Shown here: one piece after another, positions 3,624 to 37,077 of the stretch
Numbering within the stretch: position 1 is the first letter of the stretch
Layout of the letters: the number at the start of each line of letters is the position of its first letter
NCBI RefSeq assembly: GCF_009914755.1
Contig: NC_060929.1
Origin: the human T2T-CHM13v2.0 reference genome, Homo sapiens
Direction: 5' to 3' (one strand)
Length of the DNA: 64,000 nucleotides
Position numbers and translations under genes: made by a program
The notes under the pieces: model-generated
What the model was told of the DNA's origin: nothing
Databases searched by the model: none
Seen by the model: the letters and a program-made list of their open reading frames with translations, nothing else

Positions 3624-3710
3624 GAGATGGAGTTTTGCTCTTGTTGCCCAGGCTGGAGTACAATGGCACGATCTTGGCTCACTGCAACCTCCACCTCCTA
3701 GGTTCAAGCA
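3610..3710 (-). mobile_element. Alu 3'-end fragment
   Basis: ttttgagatggagttttgctcttgttgcccaggctgg...ggttcaagc, then an abrupt end. Confidence 0.9.
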
Positions 3711-5934
3711 CCACCCCCCTGACACAGGGACACACACATAAAATGTAACAGAATGCAGCGTTCTGCCTTGGCCTTTTCCTCTTACTGTATCCTGGAGATT
3801 CCCCTGTGACAGTGTCATTTTCCCATCTAGCTGTATCACCCTCTGCGTTATGGGTGATCTGTAGTGTCCCCTTTGGCTGGATGTTTGGATGACCTCCCGT
3901 CATTTGCTATTACAGCTGGTGCTGTGGTACATAGCCTTGTGTAGATGTCAATTTATATTTTCACCTGGAGTTCACTGAGTGCTATTAATGGGCCAGGCCC
4001 TGCGTGACCCACAGGAGATTCAAGGACAAATCTGACCCAGCCCAGCAAGAGTGGAAGACCCTGCAGCCAGCCTGGGGCTGGGCCGGGTATAGTCCCCAGA
4101 GCCTGTGGAGACTGGGGAGCTGCCTTGGGATGGGGAGTGTGGTTTGTCTGGCCTTCCGGAAGTCAAGCAGTCAGATTTACTCTTCTTCCTCTTTGTCCAG
4201 ACTTGGTCTTTGTGGGAAGGAGGGGAGGGGAAAGGCCAAGATTTTGTGGTCAGAAAGGGTTATCACGGATGGGAGAGGTCACATGTGGAGATGATTGGGG
4301 TAGAAGTGGAGGCTGCTGGAGCTGGGAGGCCATGCCATGGGCACCAAGGTCTAGGGAGAGAGCTGCAGGGAGAAAACCTTATATGCGTTGGTGACATCAG
4401 CATTATGTGCTATGTAGACCAGGAGTCGTCACCCAGATTTCTCATAAATCCAGGCCTTCACTCCTTCACCTGCCAGCCTGTTTCCCTCTTCCAGGCAGGC
4501 ATGTGGCCCAGGGGTGAGAAGAATTGTTCTACTGCCAGACTGTGCCAGTTCAAGTCCTGGCCCTGCATCTTGGGCAAGTAAAACAGAAAGAATGCTACTG
4601 TCTACCATACAGGGTTATGAAAGTGATCCGAGATACTGAACGCAAAGTGTAAGCCGAGGCTTCGTGCGCAGTAAGCCCTCGCAAGGGGGGTAGCAGCAGT
4701 CATAGCTGTGATTGTTACTATTATATTATTATTATTATTCCTCCCTCAAAGTTGCTCCATCTGGGCTGGAGACAGAGATGGACCTTTTTTCCTTTGGACA
4801 GAGGGAGAGAGTGGTATGAACTCATCTTAGTAGTATGAATGTCAAGGTCAGGATTTGAGGGGGGCGATGAGAATGATTCTAGGGCTCCCTCCCGCCTGCC
4901 TCCACTTGGCTCTGGTGTGTTCATTTGCCTTCGTGCCCCCCAACACACATACACGCATGCACACACATACACTAGCACAGCCCCCGGGCCAGTGGTTCTC
5001 AGTAAGGTGGAGGGAATGAGTAGGTGAACAAACGAGTGAGTTTTTCGCCTCACTCCCTGGCACTCGGCACCGAGGGCTCCGACAGGCTGGTGGCCAGGGC
5101 TGACCAGCCAGAGTTTCATCTAAAAGCCTCGATGGCTATTTTTGGGACAAATGACCCACCACTTCCAATGACTTGCTCCGAAATGGCATCTAATTTCATT
5201 AAGCCTTGGAAACAGTGACATCACAAGTGCCTGCCCGGTAGCCGCCCACATATGGCGAACCACAGAGTGATCCGAGATTCGTCTGCAAGAACAGGGGAGA
5301 ACTAAGGTCCCAAGCAGCAAAAGTTAAAATAGCAAAGCTGAGGCATTCTGCTATGAAAAGAAATTACAGATGAAATCCATTAGTCAGACATTTCCAGCGG
5401 CAGTTTCCTTGCTTGGGAGCAGGGGAAGACGTGTTTATTCGGGGTTGGGCTCTGCAGCCATTCCTCACTCTGTAGGCAAGATGTGGCCCGGAAAGTGGGT
5501 TTCTGTTAAGGAAATCCTATGTTCTCATTGACTTTTAGCACCGACCTTCCTGTACATTCTCATGGAATTTGCTGTATCCTAAGGCGTGAGGAAGCTAGAG
5601 ACGTGGATTTGGCACCTTTTTGATTAACATAGTGACACTTGTACTTACCACGCCCTTACAGTAAGTCACAAAGTAAATTCAGATGGACTTCATCTTTTCC
5701 CTATGGGTTCCTTTGCTTTGTTTTTTTTCCAAGTGAGCGCTGCCTTCTCAGGCACAGAGCAAAAAGGGAGGGAAACACTGCCTAACTCCAGATTCTTGGT
5801 CTCCATGGAGGCCATCAAGGCGGTGGCTGTGACATCACCCATCGGGGGCAGGAGCAGCTGGAGGCCCCTCAGAGAGAGCATGGGATCAATGGGAAACCTT
5901 CTATGTGGGAGGTTTTATTCCGCACACAACAGAG

Positions 5935-6125
5935 CTTCCCAGCCTCAACCCTATTGACACTTGGGGCTGGTCATTCTTTGTCGTGGGGGGACCTTCTTGT
6001 GTGCCATGGAATGTTTAGCAGTACCCCTGGCCTCTACCTATGAGATGTCAGTAGCACCCCACACCCAGCGACGGCCCAAAAGACAAATGTCCACTGAGAG
6101 GCAAAACCTCTCCTTACATGAGCAC
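5935..6125. mobile_element. MER20 hAT-Charlie DNA transposon relic
   Basis: ctattgacacttggggctgg...attctttgtcgtgggggg...atgtttagcagtacccctggcctctacc...gatgtcagtagcacccc matches the MER20 consensus as recalled. Confidence 0.75.
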
Positions 6126-23180: not shown

Positions 23181-23253
23181 TCTCCATCTGCTGCTGCCTC
23201 TTCATCCTCTTCCTCTTCCTCTCGGAGCTCACCGGATTTATAACGACAGAAGT
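23181..23253 (+). CDS. ERGIC1: ERGIC1 coding exon 3 (73 nt): [25 protein letters not shown], first transmembrane helix
   Basis: tttcttccag acceptor; GT|GTAAGT donor at 23254. Hydrophobic stretch that continues the exon 2 frame (A|TC = Ile). Confidence 0.97.
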
Positions 23254-30205: not shown

Positions 30206-31577
30206 CTCCTGCCCTGGGGCAGCCAACAGCTTGACTTGGCAGTCATCCAGCAGCCCTGTGAAGTAGACGGAATCTTTATCCTTATTTTCCTCTTTTTCTC
30301 TCCTTTCCTCTCTCCCTCCTTCCTTTCCTTTCTTATTTTCTTATTTTAGTGAGGTATGTGTAACTTACATACAGCAAAGCATACAAATATTAAGGTAGAG
30401 GCCTGATGAATTTTCACCTGTGTTTACACACGTAACCATCACTCTGATGAAGACATAATACATTCTGTCACCAAAGAAGGGTCCCTTGAGCCCCTCCCAG
30501 TCAGTAGCCCCCACCACTATTATTCTGACTTCCATTGCCATAGATTAATTTTGCTGATTTTCGAACCGATTGAAAGCTTTTCCAGTTTTACAGATGAGGA
30601 AACTGAGGCTCAGAGAGGTGAAGCAGTGTGTCCTAGGTCTCCCAGCTCCTAAGTGGCAGAGCCAGGAGGTGAGCCCACACCGGTCTGCCACTGCCCCCAT
30701 AGGCCTTCCCACTGCCCACACTGGTGACAGGGGAGTCAGGCCCATGGAAGTCCTCAAACCACAATGAATCCACAAAAAACATTTCCTTTTCTTCCAGGTG
30801 GGTTGATTTCTGGCAGCCCGTTGGCCTTTTAAAATCAGTTCAGCCCTAGCCAATGAAGTTAGTTAGCCTTGGCAGGCCCCTGCCATGGGGTGGTTGTGGG
30901 TGAGCTCGTGGCGCTGGCTGGGGTGGCAGGAAGCCAGCAGCCCTGGAACATTTGCCTTGGACACGAAGGCGAAGGCGGCTTTATTGACCTCATCAGGCAG
31001 CCCAGGTGATTGAATTGTGTTTATCTCACAGCCTGGGGCCCTCCAGGAAGGAGCCTGGGAGCAGCCAGTTCTGGCCTTACATAACCAGCCTGGCCAGAGC
31101 GCCTCAGGCCGTCCCTGCCCAGCACCGCAGCCCCCTTGTTCTGGGTGGCCCTCTAGCCCTGCGGAGCCTGTTCTCTGCTTATTCTGGTTAGGAAGACAGG
31201 GACCCACGCCTGGGAGAGGCTTCTTGGGGCCTTGTGGGTGAGCTCACCTTGGCGCCACACCTGGGATTCACTTTGCTCTTGGCTGAGGTCACCTCCAGAG
31301 GGTTGCCAGTGGATGACATCATCCCACAATCCCTCAGTGCTGTGCGGAGGCCCAGCCTCGCCAGGTGGGAAAGGTGAGTTGCTTCAAGGAAGAGTCTCAG
31401 GCAGCTTCCTGGCTGGGAAGGGAAGCCCAGGCTCTCCTTAGTTGACTGTGTGTTAATCACCCAGCAATTTCATTACTCAACAGCTCTCCAGAGTTGCACA
31501 TTACAGCTGGGGTAGAAATTGGGTGCTGAAGGCCAGGCAGAGCATTTGGCTGTAGGGAGGCCGATCCTCCTCGGGCC

Positions 31578-32270
31578 TGTTACCGGCGGGTCTTTGTTCT
31601 TAGACCTGGGGTTCTTGGCCTCACGGATTCCAAGGAATGGAACGTTGGGCCATGCGGTGAGTGTTACAGCTCTATTGGAAGCCGTGGGTCACGGAAGAGA
31701 ACTGTGGAACCCAGCGACTAGTGTGCAGCTCATTTAGGACAAACCCGGGCACTTAGCCACGCAGGAACAATGGCCAGCCTCTAGTCCGATCAGGAGCGGC
31801 AATGGGAGCCTCGCTGAATAAGCACAGCGGACACCCTGCCGGATCCAGAGGGGTGGAAGTCAGCGGTGGGTCTGTGACGACTGCGATCAGCACCACGAGC
31901 TAAAGCTCAGCTCGAGCCGGAACAAACACAGACCAGAAGAGTGTGTAGTTGCAAGACTTAATAGAGTGAAAACAGAACTCCCATACAAAGGAGGGACCAA
32001 AAGGGGGTTGCCCAATCCAGCTCGAATGCCTGGGTTTATATCCCCATCATTGTCCCTCCCCCTGTGCTCTCAGGCGATAGCTGATTTGACTGTTTCTTTA
32101 CCTCCTGCTTTTAGCCTAATTGGTATTTCAGTGAGCTCCCTTTACTACCTGATTGGTCAGGTGTGAGCTGAGTTAGAAGCCCGGTGTTTAAAGGTGGGAG
32201 TGGTCACCTTCCCCAGCTAGGGTTAGGAATTCTTATTTGGCCTAGGAAATCCAGCTAGTCCTGTCTGTCA
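31578..32270 (-). mobile_element. ERV1 solo LTR, LTR17/LTR30-like (HERV-W/HERV30 clade), about 693 bp
   Basis: Minus strand begins TGACAGACAGGACTAGCTGGATTTCCTAGGCC...GGGAAGGTGACC and ends ...GGTAACA (TG...CA). It has CCAAT boxes and a GATATAAA TATA box and closely resembles the HERV-W LTR. Exact subfamily not resolved by eye. Confidence 0.88.
31637..31656 (+). CDS. ERGIC1: Candidate alternative first coding segment (MERWAM-R), LTR-derived, splicing in frame to exon 4
   Basis: GGA-ATG-G Kozak context at 31637; second in-frame ATG at 31652; in-frame upstream TAG at 31601; donor GCG|GTGAGT at 31657. Phase 2 matches the exon 4 acceptor. Confidence 0.6.
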
Positions 32271-33442
32271 TAACCTCCTGGGCTCCTGTTTGCCTCTCTC
32301 CCTCCAGCTCCTTTGCTCTTGGTGGCCTCTGATTGGGGCCAACACTACAAGCAAGGTCAAGCGCAGGTCCGTGTCTCCCCTCTCCCATCCTAAGGCTTCC
32401 CAGGACCAGGGCCCTCCTTCATTTTCTTCCTTGACCCTGATGCTGAGGAGAGGGCTGGGAGGCAGCCTGAGCTGTGGAAAGGCTGGGTTGAGATTCTAGC
32501 TCGGCCATTTCCTAGCATGTGACTCCGGGGATGGGACACACCCTCTCCGAGCCTGTTCCCTGGTTTTAAGATGGGGCTCAGGGCATTTCACAGGCGCACA
32601 TGGGACAGCATGAATGCACGTAGTAGGCCTCCCCCAGCTTAACGAGTGGAGGCCCATCTGTTGCACTCTTGTCTCTGGGAATATCCTTGTGGGCCCCACA
32701 GAGAAGCCCCAGGTGTCTTTTCAGAGCCCACCGTTCCTTGTGAACAGCATCACACCGGGTGCTAGGGGCGCAAAGATGTGGTCTTAGTAAAAACGAAATT
32801 CCTTTGCCTTGGTCTGACTCATTCTTTCCCTAAGATGTGGCCATTTACAAAGCTCTCTTGGAGTCTTCATTGCTTAGATAGGGCAGTTCTCTTTTATTTA
32901 TAGCCTAGGGACTGGACCCAAGGGGCCTAATAAATGTTTAAAATAACCACAGCCCAGCCACCTGAAGCACTGCCCCTTCAGCCGCCCCCTAGGCCAGGCC
33001 TTTAGATTTGGTTCCCTCTGGGTGGGGGGCATTATCGGGGAATCAGATGCGGCCATCAGACATCCAGCAGCTACTTGGGGATGCCTCAAGACACCTGGGC
33101 TCAGCACAGCTTCTGGCACTCAGCACCTCTCCCTCCTGCTGGTCCTGTTCCTCTTCCAAGGGCTCTCAGCCCAAAGAATGGGTCCAGGAAGAAACACAGC
33201 AGTGTGTCTGCATTCCCCCCTCACCTCACCCTCCTCCGCCCAGTCCCATCCATCAGCAAGTCCCGCCTGCTCTACGTGGGTTCCTACAGCCCTCCTCCTC
33301 TCCATTCCCATCCCACCCCATCCAAGGCGCCGCCATCCCCTGCCTGGTCTCCCTCTTGCACAGCAGCCCCTCCAGTGGGTCTTCCTTGCAGCAGCCAGAG
33401 GGAGCCCGTGTGAGTGGGAGCCTGACCCCGTGGCTGTGCTCA

Positions 33443-35894: not shown

Positions 35895-35989
35895 TGTGAA
35901 CGAGCTCTATGTCGATGACCCAGACAAGGACAGCGGTGGCAAGATCGACGTCAGTCTGAACATCAGTTTACCCAATCTGCACTGCGAGT
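35895..35989 (+). CDS. ERGIC1: ERGIC1 coding exon 4 (95 nt): VNELYVDDPDKDSGGKIDVSLNISLPNLHCE, with an N-I-S glycosylation sequon
   Basis: ctttcccctag acceptor; T|GTGAGT donor at 35990. ORF track 35896.. shows the same peptide. Frame is continuous with exon 3. Confidence 0.97.

Positions 35990-36740: not shown

Positions 36741-37077
<337 letters not shown>

What the first reader, a model, noticed from the sequence alone, without database searches (positions are those of the whole stretch)
31578..31662. Antisense ERV LTR donates a start codon and splice donor in frame with ERGIC1 exon 4
Seen in sequence: on the gene's sense strand, the U5 end of the antisense LTR17/LTR30-like element reads GGA ATG GAA CGT TGG GCC ATG CG|GTGAGT (ATG 31637, donor GT 31657). 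The ATG has G at -3 and +4, there is an in-frame stop upstream (TAG 31601), and I see no other ATG between about 31320 and 31636. The donor is phase 2, exactly what exon 4 (T GTG AAC GAG) needs, giving MERWAMR-VNELYVDD.... Inference: an alternative first exon starts in unique DNA upstream and is completed by the retroviral LTR. It would replace residues 1-52 (cytosolic tail and TM1), giving 245 aa with normal downstream splicing. Without TM1 the normally lumenal domain has no obvious route into the ER, so topology and function would change, and the isoform would be limited to primates carrying the LTR. I recall a short annotated ERGIC1 isoform that may correspond to this but cannot verify it, so the transcript may be catalogued even if its LTR origin is not described.
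Basis: partly seen in the sequence, partly recalled or inferred. Interest (0 to 1): 0.85.

Follow-up and report, generated by a model that had tools for sequence, protein, structure and literature searches.

The report
Antisense HERV-W LTR cryptic exon cassette
A solitary HERV-W repeat (LTR17) lying backwards in ERGIC1 intron 3 carries, like most of its sister copies, an ATG followed by a good splice donor that happens to be in frame with exon 4, but nothing I could reach shows that the cell uses it, so it is most likely an ordinary unused cryptic site.

Summary
The sequence facts are correct. ATG 31637 has G at -3 and +4, a second in-frame ATG sits at 31652, the donor is GCG|GTGAGT at 31657, TAG 31601 is in frame, and splicing to exon 4 (35895) is in frame, giving MERWAMR-VNELYVDD.

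The element is a minus-strand solo LTR at 31578-32270. It belongs to the family that flanks the syncytin-1 gene, that is HERV-W/LTR17.

The ATG-plus-donor cassette is not special to this locus. In 55 other copies ATG1 is present in 53, GTGAGT in 51, and the intact open cassette in 45. Such in-phase cassettes also arise by chance: intron 3 has 3, simulations average 1.09, and 69% of simulated introns have at least one.

I found no evidence of use:
- The supplied RefSeq table has no exon here.
- Upstream DNA is unique and CpG-poor, with no TATA-like motif.
- A pan-cancer and normal-tissue table of TE splice sites lists no LTR17-ERGIC1 site.

That table does show the homologous antisense LTR17 acceptor and donor forming an internal exon in LINC01320. 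A 53-nt frameshifting cryptic exon (31604-31656) is therefore an equally good rival. RNA data could not be queried. Interest is low.

The parts
31578..32270 (-). Solo LTR of the HERV-W family (LTR17), 693 bases, antisense to ERGIC1. It lacks roughly 75-87 bases of the CCAAGATGG-type repeat region that other copies carry near the U5 end.
   Evidence: Other copies are 81-87% identical over 31593-32270. First-look candidates numbered 792, 600 and 763, with 40 scored each time. Other copies carry the extra repeat block and end in the same TGTTACC motif. The window LTR is 82.4% identical over 699 columns to the LTR directly 3' of the syncytin-1 ORF.
31637..31656 (+). 20-base ATG...CG stretch (MERWAM + 2 bases) with Kozak G at -3 and +4. 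It includes a second in-frame ATG at 31652.
   Evidence: It is family-wide: ATG1 in 53 of 55 other copies.
31657..31662 (+). Candidate 5' splice site GCG|GTGAGT. This is the reverse complement of the conserved ACTCAC of the LTR U5.
   Evidence: GTGAGT is present in 51 of 55 other copies. The same intronic hexamer is used by the real donors after 14923, 35989 and 61361.
31604..31656 (+). Rival reading: a 53-base cryptic internal exon bounded by the LTR's antisense acceptor TTTGTTCTTAG|A and the same donor. Inclusion shifts the frame and gives a TGA five bases into exon 4.
   Evidence: The homologous acceptor (consensus position 754) and donor (position 625) are listed as used in LINC01320, class Normal. 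Forty of 54 other copies keep the acceptor motif, with would-be exons of median 110 bases.
31601..31603 (+). In-frame TAG upstream of the ATG. Its AG (31602-31603) is also the candidate acceptor.
31371..31379 (+). Perfect consensus donor AAG|GTGAGT in unique DNA 283 bases upstream. It would compete for any transcript starting further upstream. With ATG 31313 it gives a 21-residue out-of-frame peptide.
31150..31577 (+). Unique, CpG-poor intronic DNA in which the proposed transcription start would have to lie. It overlaps RefSeq enhancer features 30328-31285 and 30766-31969.
   Evidence: Only a self match in the genome. CpG o/e is 0.22-0.27 here and there is no TATA-like motif in 30800-31640. 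The enhancer features come from the supplied annotation.
35895..35989 (+). ERGIC1 exon 4, the acceptor exon. Its first base completes a codon.
23181..23253 (+). ERGIC1 exon 3, encoding the first hydrophobic (transmembrane) segment that the proposed isoform would lose.
   Evidence: maximum Kyte-Doolittle 2.61.

Best explanation
A solo HERV-W LTR (LTR17) inserted in antisense orientation into ERGIC1 intron 3 in a catarrhine ancestor. The antisense strand of the U5 region of this family carries three ancestral features: a pyrimidine-rich AG acceptor, one or more ATGs, and a GCG|GTGAGT donor. The ATG-plus-donor cassette at 31637-31662 was therefore inherited from the retrovirus, not shaped at this locus. 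Its agreement with the phase of exon 4 is a 1-in-3 coincidence. A local deletion of the CCAAGATGG repeats removed the upstream ATGs that other copies have. At this locus the cassette is most likely silent, or used only at noise level. It does not define an established ERGIC1 isoform. Shown here: the sequence facts, the family membership, the family-wide presence of the cassette, and the chance expectation. Inferred: the lack of use.
For: - The cassette is family-wide. ATG1 is present in 53/55, GTGAGT in 51/55 and the intact open cassette in 45/55 other copies.
- The family was identified through the LTR next to the syncytin-1 ORF. Its size and copy number agree with the 780-nt consensus and the roughly 800 LTRs reported in PMC5016936.
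- The chance expectation is high: 3 in-phase cassettes in intron 3 against 1.09 expected, and 69% of simulations have at least one.
- The supplied RefSeq table has no exon here.
- Upstream DNA is unique, CpG-poor and without a TATA-like motif.
- A stronger donor lies upstream at 31374.
- There is no LTR17 row for ERGIC1 in Table ST3 of PMC10614793, a study of 10,257 cancer and 3,088 normal samples whose TE library includes LTR17.
- ERGIC1 does not occur in the held supplements of PMC12999487 (2 files) or PMC12587700 (1 small file).
- Five of the literature searches pairing ERGIC1 with LTR or promoter terms returned nothing relevant to human ERGIC1.
- PMC1794541 reports that splicing within antisense ERVs is down-regulated (passages).
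Against: - The donor matches the consensus as well as real donors of the same gene (ACG|GTGAGT after 61361), and the Kozak context is good.
- The homologous donor and acceptor are demonstrably used in LINC01320 in normal tissues, so the sites are competent.
- This copy's deletion leaves 0 upstream ATGs in the LTR-derived leader, whereas 39 of 40 other copies have at least one.
- RefSeq enhancer features overlap the region, and intragenic enhancers can initiate sense transcripts (recalled, not tested).
- All negative evidence comes from annotation and catalogues of limited sensitivity. The rTea reference copies had to be under 5% diverged, and Table ST3 lists only exonization-type events.
- No RNA-seq junction, CAGE or Ribo-seq data could be queried.
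Confidence: 0.7

Rival explanations
1. A sense transcript starts in the unique DNA just upstream, perhaps driven by the intragenic enhancer. It uses the LTR donor at 31657 and splices to exon 4. Translation from ATG 31637 gives a 245-aa catarrhine-specific ERGIC1 lacking the cytosolic tail and first transmembrane segment.
For: - In-frame join, good Kozak context, upstream in-frame stop, and no upstream ATG from 31314 to 31636.
- A strong donor whose homologue is used elsewhere.
- A locus-specific deletion removes the upstream ATGs found in 39 of 40 other copies.
- RefSeq enhancer features at 30328-31285 and 30766-31969 (supplied annotation).
Against: - There is no exon in the supplied RefSeq table of 8 transcripts.
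- There are no promoter-like sequence features.
- A start upstream of 31374 would meet a perfect donor first and give an out-of-frame product. The start would therefore have to fall in a window of about 260 bases.
- No ERGIC1-LTR17 event appears in the TE-fusion table, and no paper mentions one.
- The product has no signal or anchor for the normally lumenal domain, so even if made it is likely misfolded. This last point is inference.
Confidence: 0.1
2. The LTR end acts as a cryptic internal cassette exon (31604-31656, 53 bases) between exons 3 and 4, using the LTR's antisense acceptor and donor. Inclusion shifts the frame and creates a TGA five bases into exon 4. Such transcripts would be non-productive and degraded by nonsense-mediated decay.
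For: - Both sites are family features. They are listed as an acceptor/donor pair 107 bases apart in LINC01320 in normal tissues.
- 40 of 54 other copies keep the acceptor motif, with would-be exons of median 110 bases.
- This reading needs no new promoter.
- The frame consequence was computed.
Against: - The pyrimidine content of the tract is 0.67, against 0.78-0.83 for the eight real acceptors.
- The deletion shortens the exon to 53 bases.
- It is not in the RefSeq table and not in Table ST3.
- NMD would hide it from catalogues, so its absence is weak evidence.
Confidence: 0.15

Closest known systems
Antisense LTR17 exon in LINC01320 (Table ST3 of PMC10614793; supplement passages seen)
   Same: It involves the same repeat family, the same antisense orientation and the same two sites. 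The acceptor is at consensus position 754, which corresponds to window 31604. The donor is at position 625, within 2 bases of the position homologous to window 31656 by my count on the consensus shown.
   Different: There it is an internal exon of a non-coding RNA with read support in normal tissues. Here no use is documented, the exon would be 53 rather than about 107 bases, and the host is a coding gene.
Cryptic splice sites of intronic ERVs/LTRs and their antisense bias (van de Lagemaat, Medstrand and Mager 2006, PMC1794541; passages seen)
   Same: It concerns an intronic antisense LTR carrying predicted strong splice signals. The paper reports that such sites exist on either strand and are mostly not used in antisense elements.
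   Different: In the passages I saw, that paper treats families statistically and does not describe this locus or the LTR17 U5 cassette.
TE-derived alternative promoters and first exons, or onco-exaptation (mentioned in PMC10614793, passages; otherwise recalled)
   Different: In the known cases the LTR supplies the promoter in sense orientation. Here the LTR is antisense and only 59 of its bases lie upstream of the ATG. The promoter would have to be host DNA, and the LTR would give only the ATG and the donor.
Antisense Alu exonization, including one in this gene
   Same: The kind of event is the same: an antisense repeat offering a donor. Table ST3 lists a cancer-specific antisense AluSq2 donor joined to ERGIC1. 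It fits the Alu at window 36751-37045 and its CAG|GTG at 36886/36887.
   Different: It is a different repeat class and a different intron (intron 4, joined to exon 5). My mapping of its position to the window is approximate, off by about 11 bases.

Membership tests
LTR17 (HERV-W LTR), solo copy | Full-length homology to the LTRs that flank HERV-W proviruses | tested here: met
   The window LTR aligns at 82.4% over 699 columns to the LTR directly downstream of a 540-codon env ORF on contig C7. That ORF matches PDB Syncytin-1 8ouh_D at E 2.4e-295. The names HERV17/LTR17 = HERV-W come from PMC1794541 and PMC5016936.
LTR17 (HERV-W LTR), solo copy | TG...CA termini and a length near the 780-nt consensus | tested here: met
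   TG at 31578 and CA at 32270. The length is 693 bases. It is shorter because the CCAAGATGG repeat block seen in the other copies is missing.
LTR17 (HERV-W LTR), solo copy | 4-base target-site duplication | tested here: not met
   The flanks read GGCC (31574-31577) and TAAC (32271-32274). Decay over 25-40 million years, or LTR-LTR recombination between different proviruses, could explain this. It does not affect family assignment by homology.
LTR17 (HERV-W LTR), solo copy | No adjoining proviral internal sequence | tested here: met
   The upstream 428 bases are unique in the genome. Alignments to other copies stop at 32270-32298.
Alternative first exon of ERGIC1 | An annotated or read-supported exon ending at 31656 and joined to 35895 | tested here: not met
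   It is absent from the supplied RefSeq table of 8 transcripts. It is absent from Table ST3 of PMC10614793. Primary RNA-seq and GENCODE could not be queried.
Alternative first exon of ERGIC1 | A sense transcription start upstream of the ATG | not testable with these tools
   Only sequence proxies were available: no CpG island, no TATA-like motif. RefSeq enhancer features overlap the region (supplied annotation). CAGE or 5'-RACE is needed.
Alternative first exon of ERGIC1 | Translation initiation at 31637 | not testable with these tools
   The Kozak context is favourable. No Ribo-seq or proteomics was available.
Cryptic cassette (poison) exon from an antisense LTR | An acceptor and a donor in the right order and at a usable distance | tested here: met
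   AG at 31602-31603 with 0.67 pyrimidines, a donor at 31657, and a 53-base exon. The homologous pair is used in LINC01320.
Cryptic cassette (poison) exon from an antisense LTR | Observed inclusion in transcripts of this gene | tested here: not met
   There is no such row in Table ST3 and no such exon in the RefSeq table. NMD may mask it.

The most novel reading that the evidence does not exclude
Sense transcripts initiating in the enhancer-marked unique DNA between about 31375 and 31636 use the antisense LTR17 donor. They produce a catarrhine-specific 245-aa ERGIC1 without its N-terminal tail and first transmembrane segment, so that the normally lumenal domain stays in the cytosol or is only tail-anchored. 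The isoform became possible because a local deletion stripped the LTR leader of its upstream ATGs.
Probability: 0.06. Interest if true: 0.5.

Novelty: already known. Interest (0 to 1): 0.14.

Why it matters
If the isoform were real, it would be a lineage-specific, retrovirus-completed coding first exon that changes the topology of a cargo-receptor-like protein of the early secretory pathway. As things stand, the locus shows something more ordinary. Antisense LTR17 copies carry a ready-made acceptor, ATG and donor module, present in most of the 55 copies sampled. About one in three of those lying in the sense orientation of an intron will look in frame by chance. Sequence-only calls of LTR-donated start codons therefore need transcript evidence before they count.

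Tried and rejected
- Naming the family through a provirus on contig C4 failed. That provirus has pol (RT, RNase H, integrase, MLV-type C-terminal domain) but no usable env. I moved to the syncytin-1 locus on C7.
- To inspect the LINC01320 LTR17 copy directly, I asked for 200 kb of contig C2. 
- Phrase searches across table cells of the supplement found nothing. Of the 18 LTR17 mentions in Table ST3 I saw only the 3 rows for LINC01320, so I cannot say how often position 625 is used elsewhere.
- Literature searches:
  - ERGIC1+LTR17: 0 papers.
  - ERGIC1+alternative promoter+transposable element: 0.
  - ERGIC1+LTR+chimeric transcript: 0.
  - ERGIC1+endogenous retrovirus: 3 papers. I read the two human ones and neither bears on the LTR. 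The third, a mouse-liver methylation paper (PMC7349295), was seen in the search listing only.
  - ERGIC1+alternative promoter or alternative first exon: mouse papers only. I read one of them, which reports a shorter Ergic1 isoform in mouse brown fat and so cannot involve HERV-W.
- The DNMT1-dependent region listed for ERGIC1 in PMC7076959 maps, by my rough arithmetic, near window 5.6-6.1 kb and not to the LTR.
- No MaxEnt-type splice scores were computed because the models are not on the machine. Strength was judged by match to the consensus and by comparison with the gene's own sites.
- No primate alignments were available, so the presence of this particular insertion in other species was not checked.
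- Supplementary PDFs and bioRxiv supplements could not be read and may hold further lists.

Full report
**Observation**

Reading the window and a script confirm each stated base.
- ATG at 31637 has G at -3 and G at +4.
- A second ATG at 31652 is in the same frame.
- The would-be exon ends at 31656 and is followed by GTGAGT.
- TAG at 31601 is in frame.
- The only plus-strand ATGs in 31000-31700 are 31313, 31637 and 31652.

The 20 coding bases end in phase 2, and exon 4 (35895-35989) begins with the third base of a codon. The join therefore reads MERWAMR-VNELYVDD and stays open through all downstream exons in the window. The canonical frame shows a hydrophobic segment in exon 3, [19 protein letters not shown], with a 19-residue Kyte-Doolittle mean of 2.61. 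The proposed product lacks it and has no window above 1.6 in the part encoded here.

**What the element is**

A search of the window's own genome found hundreds of copies. First-look candidates numbered 792, 600 and 763, with 40 scored each time. Pairwise alignments to 36 fetched loci run from 31593-31595 to 32270, at 81-87% identity.

To the left of 31593 the other copies carry a further block of CCAAGATGG-type repeats and then end in TGTTACC. The window copy has the same TGTTACC at 31578 but lacks the repeat block. The LTR is therefore 31578-32270 on the minus strand. It is 693 bases long, with an internal deletion near the U5 end. No 4-base target duplication is visible (GGCC against TAAC).

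A first attempt to name the family through a two-LTR provirus on contig C4 gave only pol domains. I then located env genes with Pfam PF00429. One was an intact 540-codon frame on contig C7, and I fetched it. It matches PDB Syncytin-1 (8ouh_D) at E 2.4e-295. The LTR immediately 3' of it aligns to the window LTR at 82.4% over 699 columns.

The family is thus the HERV-W LTR, called LTR17 in Repbase terms (PMC1794541 and PMC5016936, passages seen). PMC5016936 gives a 780-nt consensus, about 800 LTRs in hg19, and integration in Catarrhini from about 40 to 20-25 million years ago. It also places R-U5 at consensus positions 256-780.

**Is the cassette special?**

It is not special to this locus. In 35 copies picked by similarity to the cassette-bearing end, which is a biased sample, ATG1 is present in 35, ATG2 in 32, GT in 34, GTGAGT in 31 and the whole 20-base cassette in 30.

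A second sample was picked by the opposite (U3) end of the LTR. Of its 29 loci, 6 were duplicates of the first sample and 3 were truncated before the cassette. In the 20 new copies ATG1 is present in 18, ATG2 in 19, GTGAGT in 20 and an open 20-base cassette in 15. The start codon and donor are therefore ancestral features of the antisense strand of LTR17.

Only the phase relative to exon 4 is local, and that is a 1-in-3 matter. Intron 3 contains 6 GTRAGT sites on the sense strand, and 3 of them are preceded by an open ATG in phase 2. First-order Markov simulations of the intron give 1.09 on average, and 69% of 300 simulations have at least one.

One feature is truly local. The deletion removed the upstream ATGs that 39 of 40 other copies carry between the acceptor motif and ATG1. 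This is why the leader here looks clean.

**Evidence for use**

I found none.
- The supplied RefSeq table lists eight transcripts and no exon between 23253 and 35895.
- The DNA upstream (31150-31577) is unique in the genome.
- That DNA has CpG o/e of 0.07-0.37 and no TATA-like motif.
- It also contains a perfect AAG|GTGAGT donor at 31374. A transcript starting further upstream would meet this donor first. With ATG 31313 it gives a 21-residue out-of-frame peptide.

RefSeq enhancer features (30328-31285, 30766-31969) overlap the region, which leaves room for enhancer-initiated transcripts, but this is not evidence of a start site.

In the literature, ERGIC1 together with LTR17, with LTR plus chimeric transcript, or with alternative promoter plus transposable element gave no paper. 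Other pairings gave nothing that bears on the LTR, or mouse work. PMC7349295, was seen in the search listing only.

[quoted passage not shown] The study covered 10,257 cancer and 3,088 normal samples, and its TE library includes LTR17. The table has a single ERGIC1 row, a cancer-specific antisense AluSq2 donor in intron 4, and no LTR17 row for ERGIC1.

ERGIC1 does not occur in the held supplements of PMC12999487 (2 files) or PMC12587700 (1 small file). These are catalogues of limited sensitivity. PDFs and bioRxiv supplements were not readable.

The same Table ST3 lists three rows for an antisense LTR17 in LINC01320, all in class Normal. Two are acceptors, at consensus positions 754 and 732. 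The third is a donor at position 625, 107 bases downstream of the acceptor at position 754.

I counted along the published consensus shown in the supplement. Position 754 is the first base after the AG that corresponds to window 31602-31603. The donor corresponding to window 31657 follows position 623, within 2 bases of the listed 625.

So the antisense U5 end of LTR17 is a ready-made internal exon. Forty of 54 other copies keep the acceptor motif, and their would-be exons have a median of 110 bases.

In ERGIC1 the deleted copy would give a 53-base exon (31604-31656). Its inclusion shifts the frame and produces TGA five bases into exon 4. Its polypyrimidine tract is weaker than those of the gene's real acceptors, 0.67 against 0.78-0.83. 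There is no evidence of use for this exon either, although nonsense-mediated decay would hide it.

**Verdict**

The inference that this is a real alternative first exon is unsupported.

The most likely reading (about 0.7) is an ordinary antisense solo LTR17 whose inherited cryptic splice and ATG module happens to be in frame and is silent or used at noise level. One junction query would settle the matter.

Those have no in-frame ATG before the Met of DIQDEM in exon 5. This is inference, and I did not check the recalled UniProt isoform.

Noticed in passing
window 36751-37045 (donor CAG|GTG at 36886/36887): An antisense Alu in intron 4. Table ST3 of PMC10614793 lists a cancer-specific antisense AluSq2 donor (hg38 172910664) joined to ERGIC1 at 172914710. 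This fits the Alu and exon 5 (40943) to within about 11 bases by my rough offset.
   Followed up: partly
window 31371-31379: A perfect consensus 5' splice site AAG|GTGAGT in unique intronic DNA, 283 bases upstream of the LTR donor. With ATG 31313 it would give a 21-residue out-of-frame peptide if spliced to exon 4.
   Followed up: partly
window about 5600-6100 (rough estimate): PMC7076959 lists a conserved DNMT1-dependent methylation region for ERGIC1 at chr5:172306505-172306903. I did not see which assembly is meant and took it to be hg19. By rough arithmetic it falls near the RefSeq enhancer features at 3639-5590, far from the LTR.
   Followed up: no
window 23233-23253: A RefSeq alternative transcript has a 21-base first exon inside exon 3. 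Such a transcript has no in-frame ATG until the Met in exon 5, which would give about 198 aa.
   Followed up: no
L069 (G000:C4:8399500-8409400): A two-LTR HERV-W-type provirus of about 7.5 kb. It has a 638-codon open pol stretch (RT, RNase H) and integrase pieces. Little room is left for env between the integrase and the 3' LTR.
   Followed up: partly
L023 (G000:C8:61587192-61590355): Two LTR17 copies in the same orientation, about 1.36 kb apart. This could be a heavily deleted provirus or a tandem arrangement.
   Followed up: no
window 31600-32000: The LTR body keeps a CpG o/e of 0.62-0.65, against 0.07-0.37 in the flanking intron. It overlaps the RefSeq enhancer feature 30766-31969.
   Followed up: no
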